NCBI GenBank assembly: GCA_048886185.1
Contig: JBHLKY010000025.1
Span: 1 to 32,000, forward strand
DNA length: 32,000 bases
Direction: 5' to 3'
DNA from: Candidatus Hermodarchaeota archaeon
Lineage (GTDB): Archaea; Asgardarchaeota; Heimdallarchaeia; Hodarchaeales; Hodarchaeaceae
The notes beneath the pieces were generated by a model. It saw only the letters and a program-made list of their open reading frames with translations, was not told the DNA's origin and did not search any database. Position numbers and translations under genes: made by a program. Positions 12,283 through 26,858 of the stretch are shown here, piece by piece (within the stretch, counting starts at the first letter, position 1; each line of letters begins with the position of its first letter).

Positions 12283-12288
12283 AAAAAT

Positions 12289-13314
12289 GTGTCAAAGAAT
12301 GTTTTAGTCATCGGTGGCGGCTTAAGTGGGATTAAAGCAGCCTTAAATCTTGGTCAGCTGGGTATTGAAACGATTCTTGTCGAACGTGCAGAAAAATTAG
12401 GTGGAAATTTCCAAAAATTAGGTTCAACTTTTCCTTATGCTATTGATGCACGAACTTACCTTAATAAATACCTCCAAAGACTTCAATCTCTTCAAAATGT
12501 CAAGATATACACAAACTCTCAAGTTAAGTCTGTTACGAAAAGAGAGGATATTTTTGAAGTTACTTTGAGAGCTGATAGGGCTTCTTTCAAAGTAGGGGCC
12601 ATTATTGTAGCAATAGGTTACACTCCATTTAATGGTTCTAGAATACCAAACTATGGCCTTGGGAAATATCAAAATGTTATAGATTCGTTCGAGCTAATAA
12701 AAATGATTAGAGATGGCCAAAATCTCACACGGCCTTCGGATAAAACTCCTCTAAGAACAGCCACTTTTATTACATGCGTTGGCTCTAGGGATAAGAAAAC
12801 AAACGAATATTGTTCATCATTTTGTTGTACCTATACTGTTCATCTTGCTAAACTCATTAAAGAAATAGACAAGAAAATAGATGTAACAATTATGTATATG
12901 GACATGAGGACATTCTCGAGTTACGAAAGTCTTTATCAGGATGCTAGGGTATTAGGAGTGAAATTTCTTAGAGGAAAACCCTCCATGGTTTATGAAGATC
13001 CAAACACTCAAATTATCATAGTTCAAGTAGAAAACACCATTACTCAAGAATTTGTACTTCATCAAACAGATCTACTTGTACTTTCAATAGGAGCTGAACC
13101 AAGCGAAGGAAGCGATGAGTTAGGAAAGATTCTGGGGCTATTGAAAGATGATAGAACAGGATTCTTCATCGTTTCAAGTGAAGATGATGTATCTGCTAAA
13201 GGACAACAAAGAATTTTTATAGCTGGAAACGCTAGCGGACCAAAAGATACACAATACTCGCTAGCTCAGGCAAGTGCCGCTGCAATGAAAGCATTCATTA
13301 CCGTTAATGAATAA
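12289..13314 (+). CDS. hdrA: Second short HdrA-like protein (core domain only)
   Basis: VIGGGLSG, TCVGSRD...YCSSFCC, YMDMRTF, FLRGKPS and FIAGNASGPKD. GTG start with aggtga RBS. Confidence 0.85.
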   Translation: MSKNVLVIGGGLSGIKAALNLGQLGIETILVERAEKLGGNFQKLGSTFPYAIDARTYLNKYLQRLQSLQNVKIYTNSQVKSVTKREDIFEVTLRADRASFKVGAIIVAIGYTPFNGSRIPNYGLGKYQNVIDSFELIKMIRDGQNLTRPSDKTPLRTATFITCVGSRDKKTNEYCSSFCCTYTVHLAKLIKEIDKKIDVTIMYMDMRTFSSYESLYQDARVLGVKFLRGKPSMVYEDPNTQIIIVQVENTITQEFVLHQTDLLVLSIGAEPSEGSDELGKILGLLKDDRTGFFIVSSEDDVSAKGQQRIFIAGNASGPKDTQYSLAQASAAAMKAFITVNE

Positions 13315-13587: not shown

Positions 13588-14007
13588 ATGAACCAATTAA
13601 TAGCAGAATTGAACCTTGGAAATAAGGAAATTGATAAAACTAAAGCCGAATTAGAAGAGATGCTTTCTAGATTTGGTTGGAAATGGGCCGTACTCGCCTC
13701 AACCATTGGTAAAATATATCAAAAAGGCGACTCTGTTCCAAAAAATATGATTAATCATCTTAGAATGACTCGAACCCAAATTGAGAGTGGATGCTACTCT
13801 GTTTGTGACATTGCTAACGAACTTAGAAAGATTGAGACATACTTATTCTCAAAACTTCTAAAATTCGGTCCACAAGAAACGGATAATTTTTTGGAACTCA
13901 TAGGTAAAGCTGTTGGAGGTAAAATTAGCAGAAATGATATTGATATTAATGGTGCGGAGCCTATCTTAGCAGATTGTTTAACTCTTCCATGTGTATGCAG
14001 AGGATAG
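13588..14007 (+). CDS. Hypothetical protein, DUF2096-like N-terminal pattern, Cys-rich
   Basis: 139 aa ORF. WAVL..TIGKIYQKGDSVP...HLRMTRTQI resembles the archaeal DUF2096 pattern as recalled from memory (not searched). Carries GCYSVC and a C-terminal DCLTLPCVC. Confidence 0.7.
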   Translation: MNQLIAELNLGNKEIDKTKAELEEMLSRFGWKWAVLASTIGKIYQKGDSVPKNMINHLRMTRTQIESGCYSVCDIANELRKIETYLFSKLLKFGPQETDNFLELIGKAVGGKISRNDIDINGAEPILADCLTLPCVCRG

Positions 14008-14293
14008 CCATAATATTATGTTGAAAATGTTAAGTTTTACTAATATCGGGCTTTATTATTATCCAAAGACAGGAATGACTTTGAGTGGGATAATGAGCTC
14101 AAGAAGTTCTTAAAAGAATGGTTTTCAGGCCTTATGGAAGGAATAGAAAAGAATGCTGAGGCATGGTCCAATGTACTGGAAATGACTGTTCAATCGATTA
14201 TGTCCGCAGTATTGTACAATTGTCTAAGGGCAATTCTCCAAGGATTTAACTCATCATCTTTCAAGTCTTATCCTGATTCCATCATTTTTTATG

Positions 14294-15061
14294 TTATGAG
14301 AAAATTGAGTTTATTTTTTCTAAAATTGACTCTAATGCTAACATCCATGTTTTTTGATTATAATAGGATAGTTGATATCTCCATCCTGCAATATTTGATT
14401 CTTCCCATTTAGTTTGTAATGAGCTTACTAAACATGAGGGAATACTATAGATTGAAAAAAACGGTTTTTTTAAATTCAGTGGTAATTTGAAGAGTTTTCT
14501 TATTTTTTTAAGAGCTTTTTTAATATTCACTATCTCAGAGACTTGAAGATACCATTCAGGTGTAATACAATCGTCTAAGGGCCCCTCAAACCAATCCAAT
14601 TGAAGTACTCTCGTTTTTTGGGACGCCCAGGTTAATAGAACTGTTACATATTGCTGTTCTCTTCCATCAGAATTATAACCGGTAATATTGATCCCAAGAG
14701 CAATACAAGGAATGTCTTCAGGGATTAATGATTTTTCCCATTGTTCAATAATTGATTTCAGACATTCTGTATCTGCTTTCTTATCATTTTCATAATTGGG
14801 GAGACAAATGATTCTTCGAGGAACCCATCTAGGATTATCATCAACCAAAACTTGGGAAAAATTTCTACGACCAGACATATGAAATTTTTTATTGGATTTG
14901 GGTACTTCAAGGAATATTGGGTGGAAATCATTGACTGGAAACTGACCAGAAATTGTACCAACAATACTCAAATCATTTGAGACAGTTACTGAATTAAAGT
15001 CTATAAGGTTTCTTAGATTTCCCCAAATAAGAGAATTTTCAATAGCTGAAAGATTAACCAA
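14294..15061 (-). CDS. Hypothetical protein (255 aa), no family recognised
   Basis: Long ORF in AT-rich DNA. TTG start preceded by aggt, 44 nt downstream of hdrB on the same strand. Confidence 0.75.
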   Translation of the reverse strand: MVNLSAIENSLIWGNLRNLIDFNSVTVSNDLSIVGTISGQFPVNDFHPIFLEVPKSNKKFHMSGRRNFSQVLVDDNPRWVPRRIICLPNYENDKKADTECLKSIIEQWEKSLIPEDIPCIALGINITGYNSDGREQQYVTVLLTWASQKTRVLQLDWFEGPLDDCITPEWYLQVSEIVNIKKALKKIRKLFKLPLNLKKPFFSIYSIPSCLVSSLQTKWEESNIAGWRYQLSYYNQKTWMLALESILEKINSIFS

Positions 15062-15105
15062 AAAATCTACCTTTAAATTTATTTTTTTTATTATAGTTAT
15101 GTTTT

Positions 15106-15987
15106 CTAGGGAAATGGAAGCTTAATATGATGTTGTTTAAACTCATCTGATAAATTATAGTCTAAAGCAAAGGCAAGCAGCTCAGTATAGTAAACTATGG
15201 GAATACCCTTTCCATTCTTACCGTAGTATTCTCCAGCATCTTTTCTGACAAGGAATTGACCGCTTTCATATTGTCTGAAACAGGTAGGACAAGCAACAAC
15301 CATAGCATCTGCTCCTGTTTTATTAACTTCAACAATTTTTTCCCGAATGATCTCAAGGGAGGTATTATAGTCTGTAATATATGACCCAGCGCCACAACAC
15401 ATTCCACTTTTTAAATACGTAACAGTTGTACCATCAAGAACCTGAACTAACTCATGTAAAATGATAGGATGTTCAGAATTGTCAGTCCGCAGAATTCCAG
15501 ATGGACGAAGAAGATGACATCCATAATGAATAGCAAATCGAAAATTGTTTAATGGTCTAAGAACTCTCTTTGAAATCGTATCGCGTAGTTCATGCAATAC
15601 CTGGATAATGTGACGCACTTTAATTATTCCTCTGTACTCTTTCCCCATTTCTGCAAGGAGTTTATTGATTCTAATCCTTAATTCTTCATTATTTTGAAGT
15701 TCAAAATTCACAACCTTAAGGGTCTCATAACAACCGTTACATAATGTTAGAATATCGAGATTTTCTTCTTCAGCAAGACAGAGATTCCTTGCAGCAAGAA
15801 GAAACCATGTATCTTTGTGAAAGGATTGGGAACCATTTGGATCAGGACAACATCCAAAGGGTAGATCTTTAATTTTGATGTTAAGTGCATTTAAGACTTT
15901 TCTAGATGCACTCTCAATAAAGGGATATCGTAGTGGTATCGTGCATCCTAGAAATAAAGCAAAGTCCTTACTATGGGATTCACTCAA
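15106..15987 (-). CDS. hdrB: Heterodisulfide reductase subunit B (methanogen-type)
   Basis: LFLGCTIPLRYP...GCCPDP...LCNGC and HYGCHLLRPS...CCGAG...ACPTC. TTG start with ggagga RBS. Confidence 0.92.
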   Translation of the reverse strand: MSESHSKDFALFLGCTIPLRYPFIESASRKVLNALNIKIKDLPFGCCPDPNGSQSFHKDTWFLLAARNLCLAEEENLDILTLCNGCYETLKVVNFELQNNEELRIRINKLLAEMGKEYRGIIKVRHIIQVLHELRDTISKRVLRPLNNFRFAIHYGCHLLRPSGILRTDNSEHPIILHELVQVLDGTTVTYLKSGMCCGAGSYITDYNTSLEIIREKIVEVNKTGADAMVVACPTCFRQYESGQFLVRKDAGEYYGKNGKGIPIVYYTELLAFALDYNLSDEFKQHHIKLPFP

Positions 15988-15999
15988 AGAAACATCCTC

Positions 16000-16503
16000 C
16001 TATGAAGGTCTACTGGTTTCCTCCTTCCTCGTGTTTAATTTTAGTAAATCATTAAACCCTGAAAGATTCATAATCTTCTGAGTTTCTGAAAGATCAGGAA
16101 ATTGCACTTCGGGTAGCTTTAATTTCTTTCTTCGATTTAAGATCGTTTTTGATGGTTCTTGTGTTAATCCTGTTAAATAGAGAGTTTTCATTTCATCTAA
16201 AATTCCAATAGGAGTAATACCCTTTCTTACAGAAAGATTTTTCAATTCAACCAATAAATGCGCTAAATCTACTCCCAGTGGACAACGTTGGGTACAAGTT
16301 AAACAGAAACTACAGCTCCAGACAAATGAAGATGTTAGAATTTCTTCCAATTGACCCAAGATAAGCTTTTCAATAATTAATCTAGGATTCATTTCAGAAC
16401 TGTAACGGAAAACAGGGCAACCTCCAGCGCATGTACTACATTGATAACAAACTCTGGCAGGGGAGAGAATGTGCTTCAAAACATTTTTTGTATACTCAGA
16501 CAA
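16000..16503 (-). CDS. hdrC: Heterodisulfide reductase subunit C
   Basis: CYQCSTCAGGCP, MNPRLII and WSCSFCLTCTQRCPLGV. TTG start with ggag RBS. Confidence 0.92.
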   Translation of the reverse strand: MSEYTKNVLKHILSPARVCYQCSTCAGGCPVFRYSSEMNPRLIIEKLILGQLEEILTSSFVWSCSFCLTCTQRCPLGVDLAHLLVELKNLSVRKGITPIGILDEMKTLYLTGLTQEPSKTILNRRKKLKLPEVQFPDLSETQKIMNLSGFNDLLKLNTRKEETSRPS

Positions 16504-16588
16504 TTAACCTAACTCCATAATTATAACTATTCAATCGAAATTTTGAACATAGAATATTTTTCTCGTTGATTTGTAACTATTTATTCAC

Positions 16589-16843
16589 TCAACAACTTTT
16601 CTTAGTAATATTTTTCCGAATGAATTCAATTGAAACCTTGGTCGAAGTCTTAATAATACTAGCATCATCTGCTCTCTCAATAACTTCAGGTTCCTTTTCA
16701 CCTCAAATAATTAAAGTATTACAATTCTCTTTTGTTCCTACAGAACCCTCACTAATATCTGTTAATTCTACTGTAAAGTTTACACTGAATTTGTAAGCTT
16801 CTGGAACAGGATAATTTAATTCTCTGAAAGGATATCTAAACAT
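16589..16843 (-). pseudogene. 84-codon ORF interrupted by an in-frame TGA (nonsense mutation, sequencing error or recoding)
   Basis: ATG at 16843, 33 nt after the gltB stop: MFRYPFRELNYPVPEAYKFSVNFTVELTDISEGSVGTKENCNTLII*GEKEPEVIERADDASIIKTSTKVSIEFIRKNITKKSC*. Internal TGA at 16705-16703. Not in the supplied ORF track. Confidence 0.35.
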
Positions 16844-16876
16844 TAGTAATTAACCTAGTTTCTTACTGACACACTC

Positions 16877-18415
16877 TTAATTTTCTTCCCACATCTGAGG
16901 ATATGAACGATCTAATCCTGCGAGTTTGACACCTGTAATTGCTGCAGCATCGATAGTTAGAGCTCTCAAATCTTCTTTTGAAAGATCTTTGATAGTTTTA
17001 TGCCCAGAAAGCATGGTGAATATCTTAATCTCATCTGTCATTGCTTTCAGAACATTTACCAGACGGAGACTTGTTTTTTCGGGGTCTAACCGAGACCGAA
17101 GCTCTGGTTTGTTTGTAGTAATACCATACGGACAGTTGCCTTGATGACAAGCCATGCATGCTCTACACCCCATGGCAATTTCAGCTGCCGTACCAATTCC
17201 AACAGCGTCAGCACCAAGCGCTAATGCTTTGAAAGCGTCAGCACCATTACGAATACCCCCTAATGCAATAAGTTTGACTTTACGATAGAGACCTATATCC
17301 TTTAGAGCTTGAACCGCAGGAGGAATGCATGCAATCGTAGGAATTCCAGCATGTTGTGTGACACTCTCGGGAGATGCACCAGTTCCCCCTGTCATACCAT
17401 CGATAGATATAGCATCGACTCCTAATCCAGCAGCTATCTTAACGTCCTGATAAGGGCGGCTCGGGCCCAATTTTATTAGAATCGGTACTTTATAATCAGT
17501 AACATCTCTAATGATCTCTATCTGTGTTTTAAGATCTTCTGGATCTATTGCATCATAATATCTGGGGGGTGAAAGTGCATCTGTACCGATAGGAATACCT
17601 CTCACCTTTGCAACTTCTTCTACAACTTTTTTCCCTAGAAGATGTCCACCCATTCCAGGTTTAGCACCTTGACCTATTTTGACTTCAATTGCATCAGCAT
17701 TTTGTAAAAAATCAAGATTAACTCCCCAACGTCCTGTGGACCACTGAACTGCTAAATATCCACCAGTTCTAGCATGAGGATTACCTTTTCCGGAAATTTT
17801 AAGTTCTTCTAATGAATTAAATCCATGTACAAGAGGATATTCCTCTGGGATAGCTCCACCTTCACCTGTATTAGAAATAGTTCCCATTATATAAGCTGCT
17901 TTCGCTAAAGACATCTTTGCTTCTTTTGACAAAGCGCCAAAAGACATAGCACCAAAAACTATAGGTATACTTAGTTTAAGAGGATACTCTGCAGTTTCTT
18001 CACCAATAATTACACTAACATCACAATCCTCACGATATTTATCCAGAGGAGGAGGAGAGGCCAATTGAGAGGGAACAATTACAAAATCATCAAAGTGTGG
18101 GATAATTCGTGATGTTCCAAAACCTCTTAACAGATATTTACCCGTTTGAGCCTGATAATGAATATGTTCAACAGTTTGAAATGTCCAAAGAGATCGCGAA
18201 AAATATTCGGGTTCAGCAGGTTTGATATGAGTTGCATTATTTGGACAGAACTCCATGCAGATTCTACAACCAACACAGGCCATATCATTCCCAATTCGAA
18301 CCCTATTATCATCATCTTTTTCATAAACCCCATGTGGACATACTTCTACACATGTAGCACAATGAGTACATCTCAAATAATCAATATTTACGCAATAAGC
18401 GCCAAGAATCGTCAA
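16877..18415 (-). CDS. gltB: Archaeal-type glutamate synthase FMN-binding subunit (domain 2) with N-terminal 2x[4Fe-4S] ferredoxin
   Basis: CTHCATCVEVCP and CVGCRICMEFCP; AMSFGALS; NTGEGG; EVKIGQGAKPGMGG; DGMTGGTGAS; GGIRNGADAFKALALGAD; [3Fe-4S] motif CRACMACHQGNCPYG. Confidence 0.92.
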   Translation of the reverse strand: MTILGAYCVNIDYLRCTHCATCVEVCPHGVYEKDDDNRVRIGNDMACVGCRICMEFCPNNATHIKPAEPEYFSRSLWTFQTVEHIHYQAQTGKYLLRGFGTSRIIPHFDDFVIVPSQLASPPPLDKYREDCDVSVIIGEETAEYPLKLSIPIVFGAMSFGALSKEAKMSLAKAAYIMGTISNTGEGGAIPEEYPLVHGFNSLEELKISGKGNPHARTGGYLAVQWSTGRWGVNLDFLQNADAIEVKIGQGAKPGMGGHLLGKKVVEEVAKVRGIPIGTDALSPPRYYDAIDPEDLKTQIEIIRDVTDYKVPILIKLGPSRPYQDVKIAAGLGVDAISIDGMTGGTGASPESVTQHAGIPTIACIPPAVQALKDIGLYRKVKLIALGGIRNGADAFKALALGADAVGIGTAAEIAMGCRACMACHQGNCPYGITTNKPELRSRLDPEKTSLRLVNVLKAMTDEIKIFTMLSGHKTIKDLSKEDLRALTIDAAAITGVKLAGLDRSYPQMWEEN

Positions 18416-18437
18416 GATCTTTTACCTACGACATTTT

Positions 18438-19112
18438 TTACCTTTTTTTTGAATAAAATGGTTTATCAGTCTCAGCAATGATTTTTGTAAAATCTTCTGG
18501 TCTTGCTTTAATTTTATAGACAGAAAAGAATTGTCGAAGAAAATCTATATCATCAGATGAGAGATCTTCAATCTTAGTATTGTTTCCAAGACTTTTCCAA
18601 TGACCCTTAATGAAAATACGACCTGAAATTAAGAAGTTACCAATCCTTTCACCAGCATCTCCTAATAAAATAATGTTCCCAGCAAGCATATAAGTTCCAA
18701 GATCATTACCTGTGACATTTTCTACAAGAATTGTCGCACCTTTATTCATTGTTCCCAGAAAATCTCCACAATTTCCAGAAATAATTACTTTTCCACCATA
18801 ACAATATGGTGCTGCGCAATAACTGGCATTTCCTTTTACTATAATTTCTCCATTAATCATGTTGTCTCCAACAAATCTCCCAACATTACCTTCGATGATT
18901 AAATGGGCACCTGAATTTAACATACCTGCATAATCACCTACAGAACCCTTAATAATAATTTTTCCTCGTCTTAATCCAGAGGCAATACCATCTAGATGAT
19001 CACAGTTAGCAATTGTGATAGTTTCATTCTCTTTAAGTTTATTCTTAATTTCTTGACTAATGTCTTTTAATTCAGCGATTTTAGTTGTTGTACTAACAGT
19101 CACTGCATCCAT
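18438..19112 (-). CDS. Glutamate synthase domain 3 (GXGXG beta-helix) subunit
   Basis: Repeated GxxG beta-helix turns (IKGSVGDYAG, IEGNVGRFVG, VKGNAS, ISGNCGDFLG, GDAGERIG). ATG 19112 behind gaggtg is preferred over GTG 19121. Confidence 0.9.
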   Translation of the reverse strand: MDAVTVSTTTKIAELKDISQEIKNKLKENETITIANCDHLDGIASGLRRGKIIIKGSVGDYAGMLNSGAHLIIEGNVGRFVGDNMINGEIIVKGNASYCAAPYCYGGKVIISGNCGDFLGTMNKGATILVENVTGNDLGTYMLAGNIILLGDAGERIGNFLISGRIFIKGHWKSLGNNTKIEDLSSDDIDFLRQFFSVYKIKARPEDFTKIIAETDKPFYSKKR

Positions 19113-20274
19113 TACATCCACCTCGCATTTTTAATGACTTAATATTCTCTTTTTGGGTGAAGAGTTCCATAAATCGACTTTTTGCTTCTGGAAGCCGGTT
19201 CTCGTCAGTGAGCGATTCGAGCGAATAGATTAAAAGCGAATCAAAGGTTTGTGACCGTTCTCGACGTTGTTTCTCCGAACAGGCAGCTGAAATCGCCTTT
19301 AAATCCGCTTCCTCCTTAGTTTCAAGTAATCCCAAATTTAAACAGTTATTAAGGAAATTCTGTCCTTTCATGTTCCAAGGAATTAGGGTAGCATATCCTT
19401 CAGGGGAACCTGTTTGACCAATTGAAATGTCAGCCCTCTCAGCTAGAAAATCTGTACACCTTGCACAACCCTTTCTTAGATACTTTTGTTTTTCTTCCAG
19501 TGGGAAGGTCGCATTTTTACCTGTGGAAAGCTTAATTTCCAGAGTTTCACCATTAGCAGAACTAGTGATACTTATAATTTCAGCAGGAGATATTCCAAGA
19601 TGACTTGATAAATTTTTAAGAAGAGCTGTTTCATAATATCCTGAACAGAATAAGCCGATTACAATACCTAAAGATTTCTGTAGAATAGATAAACCTTCTA
19701 ATTTTGATTCATTGACTCTTCTGATAGCTTGAGTAACACACGGAGGCCCAACAATAGCAATTTGATTAAATCCATTGGTCAAAATCTCATGATAGAGGTT
19801 TGATAGAATTGGATTCCATATTCTTTGGTTACCAGAAACTTTATAGAGTTCTTCAATTGATCTAACAACTCGTGTATATGGTGTTCCGTCCCATCTATTC
19901 ACATCTGTGATTAATGCAGCGTCAATAAACCCGTTTACAAAACCTGCTGAAAGAAGATCAGTAATAATCTCATTTATGTGATTATTTGTGGCATAACGTG
20001 TTGATTTTGCTGATATCACTCTAATAATTTCGTTTTTTTCCCAATCTATTAAGCGAGGACAACTCTCGGCGCACATTCCTTCACAAAAGGAACACGTATC
20101 AATGTCAACAACCGATAAACCAACAGTTTTTGTCTTAAAAACAAAAGAAGGATGTGCCATATCAGGTTTAAACTCTAAACGTCCACGGGAGCAAGCAGCA
20201 ACACACATGCCACAACCAGCACATCGATCCAAATTCCAAACTTTATTTTCGAGATCTAATTGCTTATAGAACAT
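19093..20274 (-). CDS. FrhB/FdhB-family (coenzyme F420-binding type) subunit with N-terminal ferredoxin, divergent
   Basis: CAGCGMC...CSFCEGMCAESCP; IVGPPC; IVIGLFC; GCARCTDF.AERADISIG. ATG 20274 behind ggaggt. Confidence 0.8.
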   Translation of the reverse strand: MFYKQLDLENKVWNLDRCAGCGMCVAACSRGRLEFKPDMAHPSFVFKTKTVGLSVVDIDTCSFCEGMCAESCPRLIDWEKNEIIRVISAKSTRYATNNHINEIITDLLSAGFVNGFIDAALITDVNRWDGTPYTRVVRSIEELYKVSGNQRIWNPILSNLYHEILTNGFNQIAIVGPPCVTQAIRRVNESKLEGLSILQKSLGIVIGLFCSGYYETALLKNLSSHLGISPAEIISITSSANGETLEIKLSTGKNATFPLEEKQKYLRKGCARCTDFLAERADISIGQTGSPEGYATLIPWNMKGQNFLNNCLNLGLLETKEEADLKAISAACSEKQRRERSQTFDSLLIYSLESLTDENRLPEAKSRFMELFTQKENIKSLKMRGGCNGCSDC

Positions 20275-23200
20275 CAATTTTACCTCCAATACGCCTCGGT
20301 TCCTTGTAAAATGGTTCACGAGAGCCAAGAGATTTAACTAACTCTGTAAATTCTGTTATCAATTGAGCAAAGCGGTTTCCTTCACTAGCTGATATCCATT
20401 CAAGAGTCAAACGCCTTGAATCAATTCCGATTGAAGATAAGGCTTTCTTCATTTTCTCAACACGTTCTTCTGCATATGAATTACCAGAAATGTAATGACA
20501 ATCTCCGGGGTGACAACCACTAACAAAAACACCATCAGCGCCTTCTAGAAAAGCCCATAGTAAGAAGAAGGGATCTATTCGTCCACTGCACATTACTCGA
20601 ATTATGCGAATACTAGAGGGGTATTGAAAGCGTGAAATCCCTGCAAGATCTGCTCCAGCATAAGAACACCAATTACAACAAAAACCAATAATTTTGGGTT
20701 CATTAGCCGGAAAGGGTCCATTCAAGGCTTCTGAAATTTGGTTTAAAATCTGGAGATCAGTGAAGCCCTGCATCGAAATTGCTTTTGCAGGGCAAGCGAC
20801 TGCGCACACTCCACATCCTTTACAAATAGCTTCATTTACATGAGAAATCAAATCTATTGGATGAAAGCTTATTGCGCCATATGGACATACATTGCCACAG
20901 GTACCACATCCAACACAAAGCGTTGGATCAACTATAGCAATGTTGGCTTCTGCAATAACATAACCCAATTGCATGGGAATTGAAGCACGAGCAGCAGCTC
21001 CAGAAGCTTGGGCAATTGAATCACTAACGTTTTTCGGTGAATGTGCGGTTCCACAAACAAAAATCCCATCAGTGGCAAAATCAAGAGGGCGGAGTTTTAC
21101 ATGAGCTTCTTGAAAAAATCCATCTATTCCCAATGGTATTTTAAAAAGCTGACTTAATTCCTTTGCACTAGAAGAATTCACAAGTGGTGTAGTTAATAAT
21201 ATTAAGTCAGCTGGATAACTCCGATTCTCTCCAGTAAACATGTTATGGAATGATATTGTGATTTCAGCATCATTGATATTTACGTTGGGTTTCTTATCCT
21301 CTTCATATCGAATGAAATATACTTGTGGAAGTTTACGTACTTCTCGATAATAGTCTTCAGCAGATATTTCAACCAATCGAAGGTCTTGATGTAGAATGTA
21401 AATATGAGCGTTTGGATAGCTTTGACGTAATTTTTTTGCTGTTTTTAGAAGAGCTGCACATCCAACTCGACAACAATATGTTCGATTATCATTACCTTCT
21501 TTCTCTTTAGACCCAACGCAGCTTATTAGAAATATATTACTTATCTTTTTAGGTTGTTTATTTTTCTTAAGAGCCTGTTCAAATTCTAGTATAGTCATTA
21601 TGTTTTCATGATGGGAATAGCCATAATATCCTACTGGTTTGAATTCTTCACCACCAGTTGCTATAATAACGGTTCCCACATCGATTGTTTTGTTGTTTTT
21701 GCCTGATAGAGTAATTTCAAATTTCCCGAAGTATCCTCCAACATTTTCAATCTTCGTATTTAGGTAGATGTTAATTTTTGGATTATTAGATATAAGACTG
21801 ATTTTTTCTTTAAGTAAATCTTCAGCATATTGATCCGTAGGGAATAAAGTCGTTAGTTTATGTAAAAATCCCCCTAATTGTTTCTCTTTCTCCACTAAAT
21901 GAACGATAAACCCCATATTTGCAAGATTATTCGCAGCAGTTATTCCTGCGATTCCTCCACCAATAATTAGTGCTTCTGGAATCACTTTAATTTGCTTTTT
22001 TGCAGCTGGTTCAAGTAATCGTGCTTTAGCAACTGCCATATTTACAAGAACTTTGGCTTTATCAGTAGCATTTTCCCAATCATGGGAATGCACCCAAGAG
22101 CATTGGTCCCGGATATTTGCCATCTCAAAAAGATATTCATTCAAACCTGCTTCCTTACAGGTTGTTCGAAATAATGACTCATGAGTTCTTGGAGAACATG
22201 AAGCAACAACAATCCTGTTAAGATTATATTCTTGAATAGCATTCTTTATGAGAGTCTGATTTGCATCTGAACAAGTAAAAAGATTATTTGTAGCAAATTC
22301 AACATTAGGCAAACCTTTTGCATGTTCTGTTACTTTTTCAACATCAAGGTACCCCCCAATATTATGACCACAATGACATATAAAAACTCCAATTCGTGGT
22401 TCCTGATCAATTATATCTTGTGATTTGATTGATATTTCTTCAGCTACTTCTTTAGAGACTCTAAAATCATTTCTATTTATTACAGCCAAAGCCTTTGAAG
22501 CAGCTCCACTTGCTTGGGAAACTGAATCTGGAATGTCTCTTGGACCCGCACTACAACCACAAAGATAGATACCATCAACTGTGGTTTCTAACGGTGCAGA
22601 TACGGGATCTTTTTCCCTAAAGAAGCCATAATCATCAAGTTCCACTCCTAAAATTTCTGATAATCTCTTATTGCTTGCTGGGGCTTTAATGGCCGATGAT
22701 AAAACCACTAAATCCACCTCTAACTCTGCAGCCTTCCTTTTAATAATGTCTTCATAGAATATGATTAAATTATTATTACTTTTTTGATTAATCTCTGCTG
22801 GACGACTCCTTATGAAGTTGATACCAATTTCATGTTTTGCTCGCTGATAGTATTCTTCAAAGCCTTTTCCATATGCTCGCAAATCCATAAAGAAGATGTA
22901 AGGTGTGATTTCAGCATGATGTTCCTTTGCAATCATTGCTTGTTTTGTTGCCCACATACAGCATACGCGAGAACAATAAGGTTGATTTATTGTAACATCG
23001 CGAGAACCTACACATTGAATCCATGCAATGGTTCTAGGGATTTTTTTATCTGAAAGGCGACGAACTTGACCTTCTGTTGGTCCTGAGGCAGATAATAACC
23101 GTTCAAATTGCATTCCTGTTATAACATTAGGATAAATACCATATCCTAGATTATATTTCACAGTTGGGTTAAATTCTTCAAAGCCTGTGGCTACTATAAT

Positions 23201-23788
23201 CGCATCTACATTAATTTCCAGTATTTCAGGCTTCTGGTCACGATCAATAGCTTTAGGAGCACAAACTTTCTCACATTTACCACAATTTTTGCAAAGATCT
23301 TTATCAATAGTTGCAACATTAGGTACTGCTTGAGCAAAATATCTATAGATAGCTCTACGGGTACCTATATTGTGATCAAATTCATTAGGGATTTTTACTG
23401 GACAAACTTCAAAACAAGCTCCACATCCCGTACACTTCTCAGTATCAACATAACGAGGGTGTTTTTTTATAATGACTTCAAAATTTCCTTTAAATCCATT
23501 AACTTTTTCGACAGTAGCATATGTTATAAGTTCAATGTTTTGATTACGACCTACTTCGACCATTTTGGGAGCTTCAATGCATATTGAACAATCATTTGTA
23601 GGGAGGGTTTTATCAAGTTTTGCCATCGCCCCCCCAATTGCAGGGGCAGAATCTACTAAATAAACATGGATCATTTGGTTAGCCATATCGAGTGCAGCTT
23701 GCATACCTGCTATCCCTCCACCAATAACTAAAACTCCACCAGTAGTCTCCGTTTTTTCGAAGTTATTTTTTGTCATTATCTTCGGCAT
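20264..23788 (-). CDS. hdrA: Tandem double-FAD HdrA (HdrL-type) fused to a C-terminal MvhD domain
   Basis: Two GGGIAG modules; TNDCSIC; CTGCGAC; CVGSR..CSRVCC; CHCG; C-terminal ferredoxin; then GFCCNWCSYAGADLAG..MCSGR..GCHPGDCHY. Confidence 0.93.
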   Translation of the reverse strand: MPKIMTKNNFEKTETTGGVLVIGGGIAGMQAALDMANQMIHVYLVDSAPAIGGAMAKLDKTLPTNDCSICIEAPKMVEVGRNQNIELITYATVEKVNGFKGNFEVIIKKHPRYVDTEKCTGCGACFEVCPVKIPNEFDHNIGTRRAIYRYFAQAVPNVATIDKDLCKNCGKCEKVCAPKAIDRDQKPEILEINVDAIIVATGFEEFNPTVKYNLGYGIYPNVITGMQFERLLSASGPTEGQVRRLSDKKIPRTIAWIQCVGSRDVTINQPYCSRVCCMWATKQAMIAKEHHAEITPYIFFMDLRAYGKGFEEYYQRAKHEIGINFIRSRPAEINQKSNNNLIIFYEDIIKRKAAELEVDLVVLSSAIKAPASNKRLSEILGVELDDYGFFREKDPVSAPLETTVDGIYLCGCSAGPRDIPDSVSQASGAASKALAVINRNDFRVSKEVAEEISIKSQDIIDQEPRIGVFICHCGHNIGGYLDVEKVTEHAKGLPNVEFATNNLFTCSDANQTLIKNAIQEYNLNRIVVASCSPRTHESLFRTTCKEAGLNEYLFEMANIRDQCSWVHSHDWENATDKAKVLVNMAVAKARLLEPAAKKQIKVIPEALIIGGGIAGITAANNLANMGFIVHLVEKEKQLGGFLHKLTTLFPTDQYAEDLLKEKISLISNNPKINIYLNTKIENVGGYFGKFEITLSGKNNKTIDVGTVIIATGGEEFKPVGYYGYSHHENIMTILEFEQALKKNKQPKKISNIFLISCVGSKEKEGNDNRTYCCRVGCAALLKTAKKLRQSYPNAHIYILHQDLRLVEISAEDYYREVRKLPQVYFIRYEEDKKPNVNINDAEITISFHNMFTGENRSYPADLILLTTPLVNSSSAKELSQLFKIPLGIDGFFQEAHVKLRPLDFATDGIFVCGTAHSPKNVSDSIAQASGAAARASIPMQLGYVIAEANIAIVDPTLCVGCGTCGNVCPYGAISFHPIDLISHVNEAICKGCGVCAVACPAKAISMQGFTDLQILNQISEALNGPFPANEPKIIGFCCNWCSYAGADLAGISRFQYPSSIRIIRVMCSGRIDPFFLLWAFLEGADGVFVSGCHPGDCHYISGNSYAEERVEKMKKALSSIGIDSRRLTLEWISASEGNRFAQLITEFTELVKSLGSREPFYKEPRRIGGKIDVL

Positions 23789-23824
23789 TTTAGTTACATC
23801 TACTTGAAAAATGCTTTTTAATAC

Positions 23825-24253
23825 TCAAAACCAATTTTGATTGGCAATTCTACCTTCTTTTTCATCTTTTATGATTTCAATGACATCTTTTACTACATCT
23901 TGGGGATTAAACTTGTTTTTCACAATCCTCACTCCCCTTTTGTGTCGAATTATTGGAAAAACGTTTGAATAATTTTCATAGATGGGAATAATTTCTAATC
24001 CTGAATTAAAAGCTAAATTGACTTCTTCACACATCTCTATGACATTTTGGGCTTCTTCTGAACAGAAAAAAATACAAACATCAATCAGATTATTAGAGAA
24101 ATTAAGGCACCTACAAAGGCTGTCTTTATCCCTATCAGTTTCACACAAGATAATTCTATCAAAATCCGAATAAGTTTTGATTTCTTCAATGAAATCAAGA
24201 ACTTTCCAACTTTGCTTGTCCTTTTCGCTATAACTAATAAATAAGTTTAACAT
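23825..24253 (-). CDS. Stand-alone TIR-domain protein
   Basis: LFISYSEKD (beta-A), CIFFCSEEA (beta-C), EEVNLA with the putative catalytic Glu, and IIPIY (beta-D). ATG 24253 behind aaggaagg; alternative ATG 24277 overlaps the gdh stop. Confidence 0.8.
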   Translation of the reverse strand: MLNLFISYSEKDKQSWKVLDFIEEIKTYSDFDRIILCETDRDKDSLCRCLNFSNNLIDVCIFFCSEEAQNVIEMCEEVNLAFNSGLEIIPIYENYSNVFPIIRHKRGVRIVKNKFNPQDVVKDVIEIIKDEKEGRIANQNWF

Positions 24254-24266
24254 TTTTTTTCTTCCT

Positions 24267-25460
24267 TTATGATTCATCCTCTAAAGCGGATAGGAGTCTT
24301 TGTTGAGCAATATCTTTAGCTATTATCCGTGGGATGAGGCCAGAATCAATTATTTTTTCACTAATTAATTTAACATTCTTCTTGATTTTTGATTCAATTA
24401 ATACAAAAGCTTCTGTAGCATCCATTTTTCGATACTCAGCAAAAGAACCAATAATCCCTCCAGCATTGACGAGAATATCAGGGAGAATAATTATACCTTT
24501 TTCAAATAATTTTCTTTCAGCATCAGGAGTTGAACTATTATTAGCTCCTTCAACAATCAATTTTGTTTTAAGTTGAGAACTAGTATCCTCATTTACTGCA
24601 CAATCATATGCACAGGGAATAAATACATCACATTCTATTTTATAAATCTCGTCTCTGGGTAAAATCATACCCTCTTTCGAACGTTTTAAGGAACGTTCTT
24701 TACTCATAGCATATGCAGATCCTCTAATCTTTGTTATATCGATACCTTCTGGATTATAGAGTGTTCCCCAGTTGTCATTAACAGCAACTATATGTGCCCC
24801 TTTACTATTCAAATATTTAGCAGTTCCATAACCTACCTTACCAAAACCTTGGATTACTACACGTGTTTCAGATAAACAATGAGGACATTTAATTGAATCA
24901 TGTAGAACTTGAAGGCTTGTTTCAAGAGCGACTCCAATTCCGAATCCAGCCATATCATTTTTATAAGCAATTCCACCAAGGTCAGTTGGTTTTCCAGTGG
25001 CTCCTAGTAGATCACCAACAGTTTCAACAAAAGCTGCAATTTCCTTTTCACCAACATTTATGTCTGGACCAGCTATATATCTGTTAGGAACAAAAGGTGC
25101 TATTTTATCTGCAAAAGCTTTAATATACTTGATTGAGTCAATTTCATATGGATTTGCACGAATACCAGCTTGTGCTCCTCCAAATGGGATTTCTGCTAAA
25201 GCACACTTCCAAGTCATTAATCTAGCGAGTTTAAAAATACCTAAAGGAGTAATTGTAGGAGAAATTCTAATTCCTCCCTTCCCTGGGCCTAATGTAGTAT
25301 TATCAATTATTAAGTACCCTTGCATCGATATATCAGGATCATAGACTTGAACTACTTTTTCAGGCCCCCATTTATCTAGAAAAGCTGAAATATTAACATT
25401 ATTTAATGCATCAAGAATATTTTCACTGCTTAGTATTGTTTTCTCATCGTGAGAAGACAT
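24267..25460 (-). CDS. gdhA: Glu/Leu/Phe/Val dehydrogenase family protein (GDH-like) with catalytic Lys replaced by Gln
   Basis: GPGKGGIR, MTWKCAL, PFGGAQAG, GPDINVG, TGKP, QGFGKVG, VEGAN and PDILVNAGG. ATG 25460 behind ggag is preferred; upstream starts at 25475 and 25499 are possible. Confidence 0.88.
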   Translation of the reverse strand: MSSHDEKTILSSENILDALNNVNISAFLDKWGPEKVVQVYDPDISMQGYLIIDNTTLGPGKGGIRISPTITPLGIFKLARLMTWKCALAEIPFGGAQAGIRANPYEIDSIKYIKAFADKIAPFVPNRYIAGPDINVGEKEIAAFVETVGDLLGATGKPTDLGGIAYKNDMAGFGIGVALETSLQVLHDSIKCPHCLSETRVVIQGFGKVGYGTAKYLNSKGAHIVAVNDNWGTLYNPEGIDITKIRGSAYAMSKERSLKRSKEGMILPRDEIYKIECDVFIPCAYDCAVNEDTSSQLKTKLIVEGANNSSTPDAERKLFEKGIIILPDILVNAGGIIGSFAEYRKMDATEAFVLIESKIKKNVKLISEKIIDSGLIPRIIAKDIAQQRLLSALEDES

Positions 25461-25775: not shown

Positions 25776-26858
25776 ATGGATTTCTGTTTCATGAGAAAGA
25801 TTCTTGAAGATCAAATGAACCTAAAAATTTTAGAATTAGTATGTGCGGGTGAAGGAGTTACTGCTAATACTACTGAGCTTTCAAAAATTCTAGGTAAACA
25901 TAGAAATACAATAAAAAATAATATTGATAAGCTTTTTGAACACAAAATTATAGAAAAACCTTTTTATCCTTTCTCTTATCTTTTCAAAGAATGGCCTCTT
26001 CTTGTCATTGAAAAAGCGACTTTTCAAAGAAATTTGAAAACAAACGTATTTATTGAAAAGGATCCAGTTATATGGGCAGCTTTTTTTGTCAAGGAAAATG
26101 AATATAATACATTATTAATTGAATTTCATAAGGACCTACATTCTTATCAAAATTGGAAAGAAAGTATAATCACAGAGGCAAAAATTACTCTCAAGGAAGA
26201 AATTTATCCTTCAGAAGCATATTTTTTAACAATGAAAAATCTGATTAAATATGATCCAACTATCGCAGTTCAAATACTAGAAATTAATTATAAGAATCAA
26301 CATCATACAGTATTAAATGGATTAAGAATTAATGACTTCAGACTTGAACTCATTAAACTTCTTTTAAATGGGAAAGGGATTAGAACTAATGAATATCACA
26401 TAAGTGAAATACTTAATGTCCATCGACGTACTGTTAAACGTCGGATTGATAAATTGTTGGATCATAGAGTAATTGATAATCCAGTTTGTTGTTTCCCTCG
26501 AGTTTGGGTACCACCAGAATACTTTTTGGTCTTCTCTCTCTTTGAAATAAAAAATAAGAAGGAATTATTATTGAGAGCATTAAAAAATGATCCACATATA
26601 CCAATTCTTTTCAGAGCCATAGTAGATAGATTTAATCTTGCTTTATTTGGCAATTTTTACAAAATGGAAGATTTTTTAGAGTGGGCTGAGGAATATGATC
26701 AAAGATTTCCAGGATGTATTGGAGCCGTGAAAAATACATTTCTCTCACCCTCCATGACATTCTCCATTGCCCATAACTATGTTACTCTCACTTTTCTTCA
26801 GAATATTGCTAATCGTTTACGAGGTAAGGCTTTTGTAGAAATGATGAAAGAAAAGTAA
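25776..26858 (+). CDS. Transcriptional regulator with two tandem winged-HTH + effector (Lrp/AsnC-like) modules
   Basis: Two HTH segments (NTTELSKILGKHRNTIKNNIDKL and NEYHISEILNVHRRTVKRRIDKL), each followed by a RAM-like alpha/beta domain. The start may be ATG 25791. Confidence 0.75.
   Translation: MDFCFMRKILEDQMNLKILELVCAGEGVTANTTELSKILGKHRNTIKNNIDKLFEHKIIEKPFYPFSYLFKEWPLLVIEKATFQRNLKTNVFIEKDPVIWAAFFVKENEYNTLLIEFHKDLHSYQNWKESIITEAKITLKEEIYPSEAYFLTMKNLIKYDPTIAVQILEINYKNQHHTVLNGLRINDFRLELIKLLLNGKGIRTNEYHISEILNVHRRTVKRRIDKLLDHRVIDNPVCCFPRVWVPPEYFLVFSLFEIKNKKELLLRALKNDPHIPILFRAIVDRFNLALFGNFYKMEDFLEWAEEYDQRFPGCIGAVKNTFLSPSMTFSIAHNYVTLTFLQNIANRLRGKAFVEMMKEK

What the first reader, a model, noticed from the sequence alone, without database searches (positions are those of the whole stretch)
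14294..25460. Candidate undescribed system: an Hdr-coupled, F420-type glutamate-synthase-like operon led by a GDH pseudoenzyme and a TIR gene
Seen: ten same-strand genes with overlaps or mostly short gaps: gdh(K>Q), TIR, hdrA-mvhD fusion, FrhB-like, GltB domain 3, GltB domain 2, small ORF, hdrC, hdrB, orphan. HdrA-MvhD, the FrhB-like gene and GltB3 overlap each other's stop/RBS regions. Known: HdrA-MvhD normally takes electrons from MvhAG hydrogenase or formate dehydrogenase and bifurcates them to ferredoxin and HdrBC; FrhB-like genes occur next to split gltB in methanogens. Inference: the FrhB/GltB module may replace the hydrogenase as the partner docking on MvhD, linking glutamate/2-oxoglutarate interconversion to flavin-based bifurcation and a disulfide/persulfide acceptor, with built-in regulatory genes. 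I do not recall this full combination being described.
Basis: partly seen in the sequence, partly recalled or inferred. Interest (0 to 1): 0.82.

Follow-up and report, generated by a model that had tools for sequence, protein, structure and literature searches.

The report
Hdr-wired glutamate synthase-like operon
A Hodarchaeales (Asgard) archaeon carries a conserved operon that joins a heterodisulfide-reductase electron-splitting module, through an FrhB-type adaptor, to a glutamate-synthase core with no glutamine-splitting part, next to an inactivated glutamate dehydrogenase; no paper I could search describes such an enzyme.

Summary
Window 14294-25460 (minus strand) encodes:
- a GDH-like protein whose catalytic Lys is Gln
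- a small, probably TIR-like protein
- a 1174-aa HdrA-HdrA-MvhD fusion
- an FrhB-type protein with two extra 4Fe-4S clusters
- GltB domain 3 (GXGXG) and GltB domain 2 (FMN, with a ferredoxin domain)
- HdrC, HdrB and a 255-aa protein.

- The "small ORF" is the 3' remnant of a second frhB gene.
- The "orphan" belongs to a rare GDH-associated family.
- A stub of a second, canonical gdh follows it.

The core HdrA(A)-MvhD / FrhB / GltB3 / GltB2 recurs in Hodarchaeales, Hermod-, Prometh-, Baldr-, Bathy- and Geothermarchaeota and Nitrososphaeria. Anaerolineae carry a version with NuoEF in place of most of Hdr. The genome has no GATase_2 domain but does have F420 biosynthesis genes.

Best reading (0.5): one Fe-S/flavin complex couples 2-oxoglutarate + NH3 / glutamate interconversion to F420 and ferredoxin through HdrA. 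The direction is unresolved, and the dead GDH probably acts as a sensor or scaffold. Docking of FrhB on MvhD was not shown.

This scan has flagged the same kind of operon before on other DNA (an Asgard genome and several Anaerolineae). I found no published description.

The parts
25776..26858 (+). Divergently transcribed 360-aa regulator with two HTH domains (internal duplication).
   Evidence: Pfam HTH_36/HTH_20 at residues 16-60 and HTH_11 at 190-227. Found in the same position in Hodarchaeales relatives (79-89% id), Bathyarchaeia (52%), Promethearchaeota (66%) and beside a stand-alone GDH in Thorarchaeota (48%).
24267..25460 (-). gdh1: a GDH-fold protein with the catalytic Lys replaced by Gln (GGAQAG). 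The substrate-carboxylate lysines and GxGxxG are kept. Probable pseudoenzyme.
   Evidence: Relatives are 397 aa long, so the start is probably the ATG at 25460.
23825..24253 (-). 142-aa, probably TIR-like protein. It is an insertion specific to this Hodarchaeales genus.
   Evidence: Pfam TIR_2 E=0.16, below threshold. Atlas features 0.95 and structure TM 0.82 to TIR_2 clusters. Only 20 close homologues, all at 55% identity or more. Absent from the cluster in other lineages. My own model was poor.
20264..23788 (-). HdrA-HdrA-MvhD fusion (1174 aa). The N-half is an FAD domain plus inserted ferredoxin domain with the DCSIC (Cys197) motif and no N-terminal domain. Residues 462-634 are the HdrA N-terminal cluster domain. 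The C-half lacks the Cys197 motif and has the C-terminal ferredoxin domain. MvhD spans residues 1030-1156.
   Evidence: There are no internal stops in any orthologue.
19093..20277 (-). FrhB1: an FrhB/Fsr-N-type flavo-FeS protein with an N-terminal 2x[4Fe-4S] domain and a conserved C-terminal CxxCxxC tail.
   Evidence: Pfam FrhB_FdhB_C 2e-28. Best solved relatives are F420-oxidoreductase subunits 8RJA_E and FrhB 3ZFS_C. Twelve invariant Cys plus the tail. Start at M18, because the upstream codons carry stops in orthologues.
18438..19121 (-). GltB domain 3 (GXGXG beta-helix), FwdC-like.
   Evidence: PF01493 2.5e-16; TIGR03122 1.2e-28.
16877..18415 (-). GltB domain 2: FMN/Fe-S synthase domain with an N-terminal 2x[4Fe-4S] ferredoxin domain. 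It is the only full PF01645 domain in the genome.
   Evidence: PF01645 4.8e-110. Alignment to GltA/Fd-GltS keeps the SNTGEGG, QGAKPG and CxxCxxC...CP motifs. for the genome count. 61-88% identical across lineages.
16534..16843 (-). Pseudogene remnant: the last ~100 codons of a second FrhB paralogue (frhB2), frameshifted.
   Evidence: tblastn to intact frhB2 of relatives, residues 272-375, 51-59% aa identity; 81% nt identity to G009.
16000..16503 (-). HdrC-like 2x[4Fe-4S] subunit.
   Evidence: TIGR03290 4e-22 (below cut-off) and Fer4_8. 56-57% identical to Bathyarchaeia and Hermodarchaeota copies.
15106..15987 (-). HdrB-like subunit with two CCG domains.
   Evidence: PF02754 3e-29 in two stretches; TIGR03288 1.5e-76, below cut-off.
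14294..15061 (-). 255-aa protein of a rare family that always lies beside a GDH gene. No known fold.
   Evidence: 48 representatives in 1.84 billion proteins. AF2 pLDDT 87. No PDB or Atlas fold match. Genomic contexts.
14193..14273 (-). 27-codon stub of gdh2, the canonical GDH that closes the cluster in relatives. The rest is deleted here.
   Evidence: tblastn 59% over residues 7-33 of G008 gdh2; 77% nt identity over 88 nt.

Best explanation
The genes encode one soluble iron-sulfur flavoprotein complex.

Catalytic end. GltB2 (FMN, one Fe-S cluster and a 2x[4Fe-4S] ferredoxin domain), stabilised by the GXGXG subunit GltB3, interconverts 2-oxoglutarate + NH3 and L-glutamate. It has no glutaminase.

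Inferred electron path. Electrons pass through the three clusters and flavin of FrhB1, which can also exchange hydride with F420. From there they go to the [2Fe-2S] MvhD domain and on to the FAD of an asymmetric, fused HdrA-HdrA. That flavin couples them to ferredoxin and, where HdrC/HdrB are present, to an unknown disulfide. Net, the complex links the glutamate/2-oxoglutarate couple to F420 and ferredoxin by flavin-based bifurcation or confurcation.

Direction. This is unresolved. I lean slightly (about 55:45) to glutamate oxidation in this peptide-fermenting lineage, because the block sits inside a GDH unit whose own GDH has lost catalytic residues.

Accessory parts. gdh1 (Lys to Gln) is most likely a glutamate/2-oxoglutarate-binding sensor or scaffold. 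The 255-aa protein is likely a GDH-binding accessory. The two-HTH protein is the likely regulator.

Shown here: domain identities, conserved synteny, the absence of a glutaminase domain, the presence of F420 genes, and the degenerate GDH site. Inferred: complex formation, electron path, substrates and direction.
For: 1. Domain calls are strong.

2. The block HdrA(A)-MvhD / FrhB1 / GXGXG / GltB2 is contiguous, usually with overlapping stop and start codons. It occurs in 7 of 22 genomes of the genus (G000 and 6 of its 21 relatives), and in Bathyarchaeia, Hermodarchaeota (15), Geothermarchaeota (16), Baldrarchaeota (42), Nitrososphaeria (43) and Promethearchaeota (44). hdrC/hdrB sit before, inside or after the block.

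3. In Longilinea the same FrhB/GXGXG/GltB2 trio follows NuoE-NuoF-(Fer2/Fer4)-HdrA/MvhD.

4. Identity to the window ranks the lineages in nearly the same order for hdrAAD, frhB1, glt3, glt2, hdrC and hdrB, so they are inherited as a unit.

5. The genome (96% complete) has no PF00310 glutaminase domain and only this one full PF01645 domain. CofH (over cut-off) and two CofE show F420 biosynthesis.

6. The Mvh-type hydrogenase on the same contig has its own MvhD, so this MvhD domain needs another partner.

7. Structural precedent: the FrhB homologue FdhB is a chain in the same solved complexes as MvhD and HdrA (entries 7BKB and 8RVU list all three).

8. The fused HdrA shows the Cys197 / N-terminal-domain complementarity described for fused HdrA in ANME archaea (PMC9012536).

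9. GDH genes flank the block in five lineages. The rare 255-aa family and the regulator accompany both the Hdr-type and the NuoEF-type versions.

10. Cluster-linked gdh1 copies carry Q, M or R at the catalytic Lys and/or a broken GxGxxG, while 107 of the 120 nearest clusters keep Lys.
Against: - No physical or expression evidence exists.
- The system is rare and patchy: 11 of 301 Asgard genomes searched, 4 of 70 genera.
- Peripheral genes erode repeatedly: frhB2 and gdh2 remnants here, hdrCB missing from the cluster in three relatives, and an hdrB remnant in Hermodarchaeota. The role of HdrBC in the same complex is therefore uncertain.
- A 373-nt non-coding scar separates glt2 from hdrC, so hdrCB-orf255 may be a separate transcript.
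- From my own knowledge, the standard potential of 2-oxoglutarate/glutamate (about -0.13 V) is that of a high-potential acceptor, whereas the MvhD port is the mid-potential donor port in solved Hdr complexes. The geometry and the thermodynamics do not point to one direction.
- In GltB2, one residue of the 'GGQL' stretch next to the conserved QGAKPG motif is His.
Confidence: 0.5

Rival explanations
1. Two separate enzymes that are only co-regulated. One is an FGltS-type F420H2-dependent (ammonia-using) glutamate synthase made of FrhB1 + GltB3 + GltB2. The other is an HdrA2B2C2-type F420H2:ferredoxin/disulfide bifurcating reductase made of HdrA-HdrA-MvhD + HdrC + HdrB. They share F420H2 as substrate but do not form one complex.
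For: - FrhB-type genes next to split gltB are already interpreted as putative F420-dependent glutamate synthases in methanogens and ANME archaea (PMC3448663, PMC9012536).
- The fusion scores over the cut-off of the NCBIfam HdrA2 model.
- F420 biosynthesis genes are present.
- The position of hdrCB relative to frhB varies.
Against: - An MvhD-containing HdrA is present beside FrhB1/GltB in every lineage examined, including Anaerolineae, where there is no HdrBC and the front end is NuoEF.
- The hdrA stop overlaps the frhB1 start in five of the contexts read.
- hdrCB, not hdrA, is the part that gets lost.
Confidence: 0.22
2. The GltB-like module acts on a substrate other than 2-oxoglutarate/glutamate (another 2-oxo or imino acid). 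The flanking GDH genes are there for a different reason.
For: - There is no amidotransferase domain.
- GltB2 reaches only 171 bits against the 1047-bit cut-off of the GltB equivalog model.
- One residue of the 'GGQL' stretch differs from solved enzymes.
Against: - The synthase-site motifs SNTGEGG, QGAKPG, the conserved Arg in 'VRG' and the cluster cysteines are kept.
- GDH-family genes with glutamate-type carboxylate-binding lysines flank the block in five lineages.
- GltB2 is 61-88% identical across two domains of life, as expected for a fixed central-metabolite substrate.
Confidence: 0.1
3. In this particular genome the system is decaying and no longer does its original job. Two members are remnants and the leading GDH is dead.
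For: - frhB2 and gdh2 are remnants.
- gdh1 lacks the catalytic Lys.
- Presence in the genus is patchy, 7 of 22 genomes (G000 and 6 of its 21 relatives).
Against: - All eight remaining genes have intact full-length frames, 69-94% identical to relatives.
- The Lys to Gln change is shared by every member of the genus clade, so it is old and has been maintained.
- Relatives that lack hdrCB or frhB2 keep the same core.
Confidence: 0.08

Closest known systems
FdhAB-MvhD-HdrABC and MvhAGD-HdrABC electron-bifurcating complexes of methanogens (PDB 7BKB, 8RVU, 5ODC)
   Same: HdrA FAD/Fe-S core, MvhD [2Fe-2S] adaptor, HdrC and HdrB. In the Fdh version an FrhB-family subunit (FdhB) belongs to the same complex as MvhD. 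These are the best sequence matches of the window's HdrA, MvhD and (weakly) FrhB1.
   Different: - The catalytic partner is a glutamate-synthase FMN module instead of a hydrogenase or formate dehydrogenase.
- HdrA is a fused, asymmetric double HdrA with MvhD attached.
- HdrB and HdrC score below the CoB-CoM equivalog cut-offs. From my own knowledge, Asgard archaea are not known to make CoM or CoB.
[quoted passage not shown]
   Same: An Fsr-N/FrhB-type subunit with extra N-terminal 4Fe-4S clusters is encoded next to split glutamate-synthase subunits. The host genome makes F420.
   Different: FGltS as proposed uses glutamine and is not linked to Hdr. Here there is no glutaminase domain in the genome, and an HdrA-MvhD gene always accompanies the module. 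FGltS itself has never been assayed, according to those papers.
NuoEF(Bfu)-HdrA/MvhD-FrhB-GltB operon of Anaerolineae
   Same: The same FrhB1 / GXGXG / GltB2 trio (35%, 44% and 61% identity) sits behind an MvhD-bearing HdrA-like protein. Some metagenomic versions are also led by regulator-GDH-orf255.
   Different: The bacterial version has an NADH module (NuoE, NuoF and a Fer2/Fer4 protein) and a single shorter HdrA-like protein (709 aa), with no HdrBC. The archaeal version has the double HdrA, a second FrhB and HdrCB.
HdrA2B2C2 of Methanosarcina acetivorans and fused or tandem HdrA of ANME archaea
   Same: HdrA fused to MvhD; the NCBIfam HdrA2 model is the best hit. The complementary loss of the Cys197 motif and the N-terminal domain in the two halves matches what is described for ANME fused HdrA (PMC9012536).
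   Different: The order of the two halves is reversed relative to that description: here the N-half has Cys197 and the C-half has the N-terminal domain. No GltB module is reported with those enzymes.
GDH regulatory assemblies: the GudB6-GltA6B6 counter-enzyme complex of B. subtilis (PDB 7MFM/7MFT; bioRxiv 10.1101/2021.04.12.439528) and the T. thermophilus GdhA/GdhB heterohexamer with inactive regulatory GdhA and an accessory sensor subunit (PDB 3AOE; PMC9570180)
   Same: These are precedents for a GDH binding directly to a glutamate synthase large subunit, for a catalytically inactive GDH paralogue serving as a regulatory subunit, and for a small accessory protein bound to GDH. Both 7MFM chains are among the top PDB hits of gdh1 and GltB2.
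   Different: No evidence here that gdh1 binds GltB2 or a second GDH. The B. subtilis GDH is active and the GltA there has its glutaminase domain. The window has lost the canonical gdh2 partner.

Membership tests
HdrA (bifurcating heterodisulfide reductase flavoprotein) | Thioredoxin-reductase-like FAD domain with a GxGxxG motif | tested here: met
   Both halves carry it (GGGIAG at residues ~23-28 and ~610-615). 420-bit alignment to 8RVU HdrA residues 154-517.
HdrA (bifurcating heterodisulfide reductase flavoprotein) | N-terminal cluster domain plus the Cys197 ligand from the partner protomer; inserted and C-terminal ferredoxin domains | tested here: met
   These features are present once each, split between the two fused halves. 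DCSIC is in the N-half only; the N-terminal domain lies at residues 462-634; the inserted ferredoxin domain is in the N-half; the C-terminal ferredoxin domain is in the C-half.
MvhD / FlpD | FlpD domain with conserved Cys for the [2Fe-2S] cluster | tested here: met
   PF02662 7e-55 over its full length. 1e-48 to 5ODC chain D. The cysteines are invariant in 11 orthologues.
HdrBC (CoB-CoM heterodisulfide reductase catalytic subunits) | Two CCG domains (HdrB) and 2x[4Fe-4S] (HdrC); score over the equivalog cut-offs | tested here: inconclusive
   The domains are present (PF02754 in two stretches; Fer4_8). TIGR03288 scores 257 bits against a cut-off of 345, and TIGR03290 scores 79 against 160. This is an HdrBC-like fold; the substrate is unknown.
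Glutamate synthase (GOGAT) large subunit | Class II amidotransferase (glutaminase) domain | tested here: not met
   PF00310 was not found anywhere in the 96%-complete genome. The control rang in 13 of 14 reference genomes. The domain is also absent from every related cluster read.
Glutamate synthase (GOGAT) large subunit | FMN/Fe-S synthase domain and GXGXG domain | tested here: met
   PF01645 4.8e-110 and PF01493 2.5e-16. Synthase-site motifs are kept in the alignment to 7MFM_G and 1LLW.
FGltS (putative F420-dependent glutamate synthase) | Fsr-N/FrhB-type subunit with extra N-terminal 4Fe-4S clusters adjacent to gltB; F420 available | tested here: met
   FrhB_FdhB_C domain plus eight N-terminal invariant Cys. 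CofH and CofE are in the genome. F420 binding itself cannot be tested with these tools.
Glutamate dehydrogenase (ELFV family), catalytically active | Catalytic Lys of the GGxKGG motif | tested here: not met
   GGAQAG in the window and all genus relatives; M and R in other cluster-linked copies. The fold, two substrate lysines and GxGxxG are kept.
TIR domain | Match to a TIR profile over threshold; TIR fold; conserved catalytic Glu | tested here: inconclusive
   Pfam TIR_2 12.9 bits against a cut-off of 28. Atlas language-model and structure neighbours are all TIR_2. My AF2 model had pLDDT 60 and found no TIR. No PADLOC or PDB sequence hit. An invariant Glu in the MCEEV stretch could not be placed against the catalytic position.

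The most novel reading that the evidence does not exclude
This is a new class of flavin-based electron-bifurcating enzyme, in which the glutamate/2-oxoglutarate couple takes the place of H2, formate or heterodisulfide. A glutamate:F420/ferredoxin oxidoreductase would be built from Hdr, FrhB and a glutaminase-free GltB, with a dead GDH and a new-fold protein as substrate-sensing subunits. It would give amino-acid-fermenting Asgard archaea (and, with a NuoEF front end, Anaerolineae) an energy-conserving link between nitrogen/amino-acid metabolism and low-potential ferredoxin.
Probability: 0.3. Interest if true: 0.85.

Novelty: new variant of a known kind. Interest (0 to 1): 0.7.

Why it matters
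Only a limited set of flavin-based electron-bifurcating enzyme types has been characterised (a 2018 review counted twelve), and each one changed how the energy budget of anaerobes is calculated. A complex that ties glutamate/2-oxoglutarate, the hub between carbon and nitrogen metabolism, to ferredoxin and F420 would be a new entry in that list.

It occurs in Hodarchaeales, reported as the closest archaeal relatives of eukaryotes (bioRxiv 10.1101/2024.07.04.601786), whose energy metabolism is argued over in models of eukaryogenesis. The parts are soluble and the core is only four genes, so the idea can be tested directly by heterologous expression.

The repeated inactivation of the linked GDH is also a clean natural example of an enzyme turning into a non-catalytic subunit.

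Tried and rejected
- Complex prediction of the MvhD domain (residues 1028-1174, 11-row alignment) with FrhB1 (28-row alignment): score 0.10 against a mark of 0.32, no verdict. This is no evidence either way.
- The look-up of sequencing runs for RNA: no RNA holder was listed, and only one DNA/unknown run held 0.22 of the words. I therefore did not run read laying, and co-transcription is untested.
- Bacterial promoter/terminator scan: no more sites than in shuffles, and not applicable to archaea.
- 255-aa protein: no hit in Pfam, NCBIfam or PADLOC, no Atlas feature hit, Foldseek PDB E>=0.0095, VIA-align best Z 4.9 (PARP WGR domain), Atlas structure TM<=0.37. No known fold was detected, which does not prove that the fold is new.
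- TIR: AF2 with 16 close homologues gave pLDDT 60. Foldseek then returned CinA/ThrRS-type alpha/beta folds at E>=0.004 and no TIR. phmmer against the PDB and PADLOC found nothing.
- Selenocysteine or recoding: the 'stops inside' flagged in frhB orthologues lie upstream of the real start (M18) and vanish with the shorter query. There are no in-frame stops in hdrA orthologues.
- A futile GDH/GltB cycle as a way to reduce ferredoxin from glutamate was considered and rejected on thermodynamic grounds (my own reasoning).

Full report
**1. What is in the window**

Nine intact ORFs lie head to tail on the minus strand between 25460 and 14294. Profile searches identify them as follows.
- A Glu/Leu/Phe/Val-dehydrogenase-fold protein, gdh1.
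- A 142-150-aa ORF with no significant family.
- A 1174-aa protein with two pyridine-nucleotide-disulfide-oxidoreductase regions, four ferredoxin-type motifs and a full FlpD/MvhD domain (7e-55).
- An FrhB_FdhB_C protein with an N-terminal dicluster domain.
- A GXGXG protein.
- A Glu_synthase (PF01645, 4.8e-110) protein with an N-terminal dicluster domain.
- HdrC-like and HdrB-like (two CCG) proteins.
- A 255-aa ORF with no family.

The hdrA stop overlaps the frhB start by 14 nt, and the frhB stop overlaps the glt3 start by 20-29 nt.

**2. Refinements of the anatomy**

The large protein is HdrA-HdrA-MvhD, not HdrA-MvhD. Against solved HdrA (8RVU, 5ODC) it aligns in three pieces.
- Residues 19-382 match the FAD domain plus inserted ferredoxin domain.
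- Residues 462-634 match the HdrA N-terminal cluster domain and the start of a second FAD domain.
- Residues 858-1025 match the end of the FAD domain plus the C-terminal ferredoxin domain.
- MvhD follows at 1030-1156.

The DCSIC motif that supplies Cys197 is in the first half only. The second half has PTDQYAED at that place. This is the complementary pattern described for fused and tandem HdrA of ANME archaea and read there as a built-in heterodimer (PMC9012536), although the order of the halves is reversed here.

The frhB start is the ATG at 20277. The 17 codons upstream carry stop codons in orthologues.

The 373-nt 'gap' between glt2 and hdrC is the frameshifted last ~100 codons of a second FrhB paralogue. 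That paralogue is intact (373-375 aa) at this position in relatives. Just past the 255-aa gene lies a 27-codon stub of a second GDH gene.

**3. The GDH**

Alignment to solved GDHs shows GGAKGG replaced by GGAQAG. The two upstream lysines (GPGKGG, MTWK) and GFGKVG are kept. All genus relatives share the Gln.
- The Hermodarchaeota copy has Met and GFNTLG.
- The Bathyarchaeia copy has Arg, GFDNVG and GPGNGG.
- The Promethearchaeota copy keeps Lys but has GFDCAG.

Among the 120 nearest protein clusters, 107 keep Lys and 100 have GFGNVG. In a quick tree, the Gln, Met and GFDCAG forms fall in one 12-row group (SH-aLRT 90). The Arg and Thr forms sit elsewhere on long branches. The data are compatible with several separate inactivations, but the tree does not force more than one.

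The second GDH (gdh2) at the far end of the cluster in relatives is canonical (GGAKGG, GFGNVG). In this genome it is deleted. The only canonical GDH found is on another contig.

**4. The small proteins**

The 142-aa protein:
- Pfam gives only a sub-threshold TIR_2 match (E=0.16).
- The ESM Atlas places it among TIR_2 clusters by features (0.95) and by structure (TM 0.82 to an Asgard TIR_2 cluster).
- My own fold was poor and did not recover TIR.
- It has only close homologues and is missing from the cluster outside this genus.

I treat it as a probable TIR-like, lineage-specific insertion and not as a core part.

The 255-aa protein is not an orphan.
- It has 48 representatives in 1.84 billion proteins.
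- It folds confidently (pLDDT 87).
- It matches no solved or Atlas fold.
- In every context I could read, it lies beside a GDH gene. In Hodarchaeales and Bathyarchaeia it sits before gdh2. In Hermod- and Promethearchaeota it sits after gdh1. In two metagenomic contigs it lies in regulator | gdh - orf255 (- gdh) - NuoE - NuoF arrangements. In Thorarchaeota it forms a stand-alone regulator | gdh - orf255 unit whose GDH is intact.

The two-HTH regulator is conserved in the same divergent position.

**5. Synteny**

Orthologous clusters are present in 6 of 21 genomes of the same genus (7 of 22 counting G000) and in 11 of 301 Asgard genomes searched (4 of 70 genera).

The core HdrA(A)-MvhD / FrhB1 / GXGXG / GltB2 is also found in Bathyarchaeia, Hermodarchaeota, Geothermarchaeota, Baldrarchaeota, Nitrososphaeria and Promethearchaeota. 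hdrC/hdrB lie upstream of hdrA, between hdrA and frhB1, or downstream of glt2.

In Longilinea arvoryzae the FrhB1/GXGXG/GltB2 trio follows NuoE, NuoF, a Fer2/Fer4 protein and a 709-aa MvhD-bearing protein.

Identity to the window ranks the lineages in nearly the same order for all six redox genes. GltB2 is the most conserved (61-88%).

The peripheral genes are lost repeatedly.
- frhB2: a remnant here, and a smaller one in G008.
- hdrCB: absent from the cluster in G003, G008 and G014, with an hdrB stub in Hermodarchaeota.
- gdh2: a stub here.

**6. Genome context**

The genome is estimated 96% complete. Findings:
- No PF00310 glutaminase domain.
- No second full glutamate-synthase domain.
- Two glutamine synthetases.
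- CofH over cut-off and two CofE.
- An Mvh-type [NiFe] hydrogenase with its own MvhD on the same contig, 17 kb beyond the window.

So F420 is available, the enzyme cannot be a glutamine-dependent GOGAT, and this MvhD domain is not needed by the hydrogenase.

**7. Interpretation**

The simplest account of the conserved core is a single complex. In it, the GltB2 FMN site (2-oxoglutarate + NH3 / glutamate) is wired through FrhB1 and MvhD to the HdrA flavin, and from there to ferredoxin and, where present, HdrBC.

FrhB-family subunits (FdhB) are chains of the same solved complexes as MvhD and HdrA (7BKB and 8RVU). The FrhB1 type (FrhB plus an N-terminal dicluster) is the type proposed as the F420H2-dehydrogenase subunit of putative F420-dependent glutamate synthases (PMC3448663).

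The direction is open. From my own knowledge the standard potential of the couple is about -0.13 V, which is like heterodisulfide. That would make reductive amination a natural exergonic branch of a bifurcation from F420H2 (or NADH in Anaerolineae).

The block is nested in what is, in Thorarchaeota, a plain regulator-GDH-orf255 unit, and the linked GDH then loses catalytic or cofactor motifs. This suggests that the GltB module took over the chemistry of that GDH. I lean slightly toward glutamate oxidation in this lineage.

gdh1 most likely survives as a ligand-binding or scaffolding subunit. Precedents are the inactive regulatory GdhA subunit plus accessory sensor of Thermus thermophilus GDH (PMC9570180) and the GudB-GltAB complex of B. 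subtilis, in which a GDH hexamer docks on the glutamate synthase large subunit (bioRxiv 10.1101/2021.04.12.439528).

All of this paragraph is inference. Complex formation, substrates and direction were not tested. The one complex-prediction job gave no verdict, and no RNA data were available.

**8. Novelty**

Full-text searches found no description of this combination.
- HdrA + GltB + FrhB: zero papers.
- HdrA/MvhD/glutamate synthase/FrhB, glutamate synthase + MvhD + bifurcation, and Asgard + Hdr + glutamate synthase: only papers that mention the parts separately.

Earlier notes of this scan record the same kind of operon in another Asgard genome and the NuoEF version in several Anaerolineae. 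I reproduced both observations independently from sequence.

New in this report:
- the GDH / orf255 / regulator frame shared by both versions
- the recurrent degeneration of the linked GDH
- the double-HdrA anatomy
- the two gene remnants
- the genome-wide absence of a glutaminase domain.

It is a new combination of known modules, so I file it as a new variant of a known kind.

Noticed in passing
window 1083-13314 (+): A second, different Hdr-type supercluster lies directly upstream. It holds a 731-aa Fer4+CCG protein, a TauE-family membrane protein (3629-4441), HdrC-like (4937-5626), HdrB-like (5544-6518), a Pyr_redox_2 protein (6505-7557), an HdrD-like Fer4+CCG protein (7554-8687), another fused HdrA-HdrA (8708-11812, 1034 aa, no MvhD), a separate MvhD (11830-12282) and a 341-aa Pyr_redox_2 protein.
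   Followed up: partly
window 27222-31998 (-): Complex-I-like / group 4 [NiFe]-hydrogenase-like genes: NuoB-type (27222-27680), a 220-aa unknown, a NuoI-type ferredoxin (28355-28912), NuoH (28944-29945), and a NuoD/NiFe large-subunit-like gene (29942-31225).
   Followed up: no
G000 contig C25:41064-43856 (outside the window): A stand-alone MvhD is followed by a [NiFe] hydrogenase large subunit (499-aa frame). This is an Mvh-type hydrogenase on the same contig, about 17 kb from the cluster.
   Followed up: no
L056:7544-11018 (Thorarchaeota contig): A stand-alone three-gene unit: regulator (48% id) | GDH with intact Lys and GFGNVG (59% id) - orf255 homologue (33% id), with no Hdr or GltB genes. 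It is probably the ancestral frame into which the redox genes were placed.
   Followed up: yes
G000 contig C1:53169-56154: A weak Glu_synthase/FMN-dehydrogenase-like match, an MvhD (142-aa frame) and a ferredoxin-domain protein lie within 3 kb of each other. This may be another MvhD-linked flavoenzyme.
   Followed up: no
L020:10837-11541 and nearby (Hermodarchaeota): This cluster has two orf255 paralogues (47% and 32% id) and only a short hdrB remnant after hdrC.
   Followed up: partly
window 13588-14007 (+): A DUF2096 N-terminal-domain protein (1e-05) sits just beyond the deleted gdh2. The 92-aa ORF at 14134-14412 (+) overlaps the gdh2 stub and the end of orf255 and is probably not a gene.
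   Followed up: no
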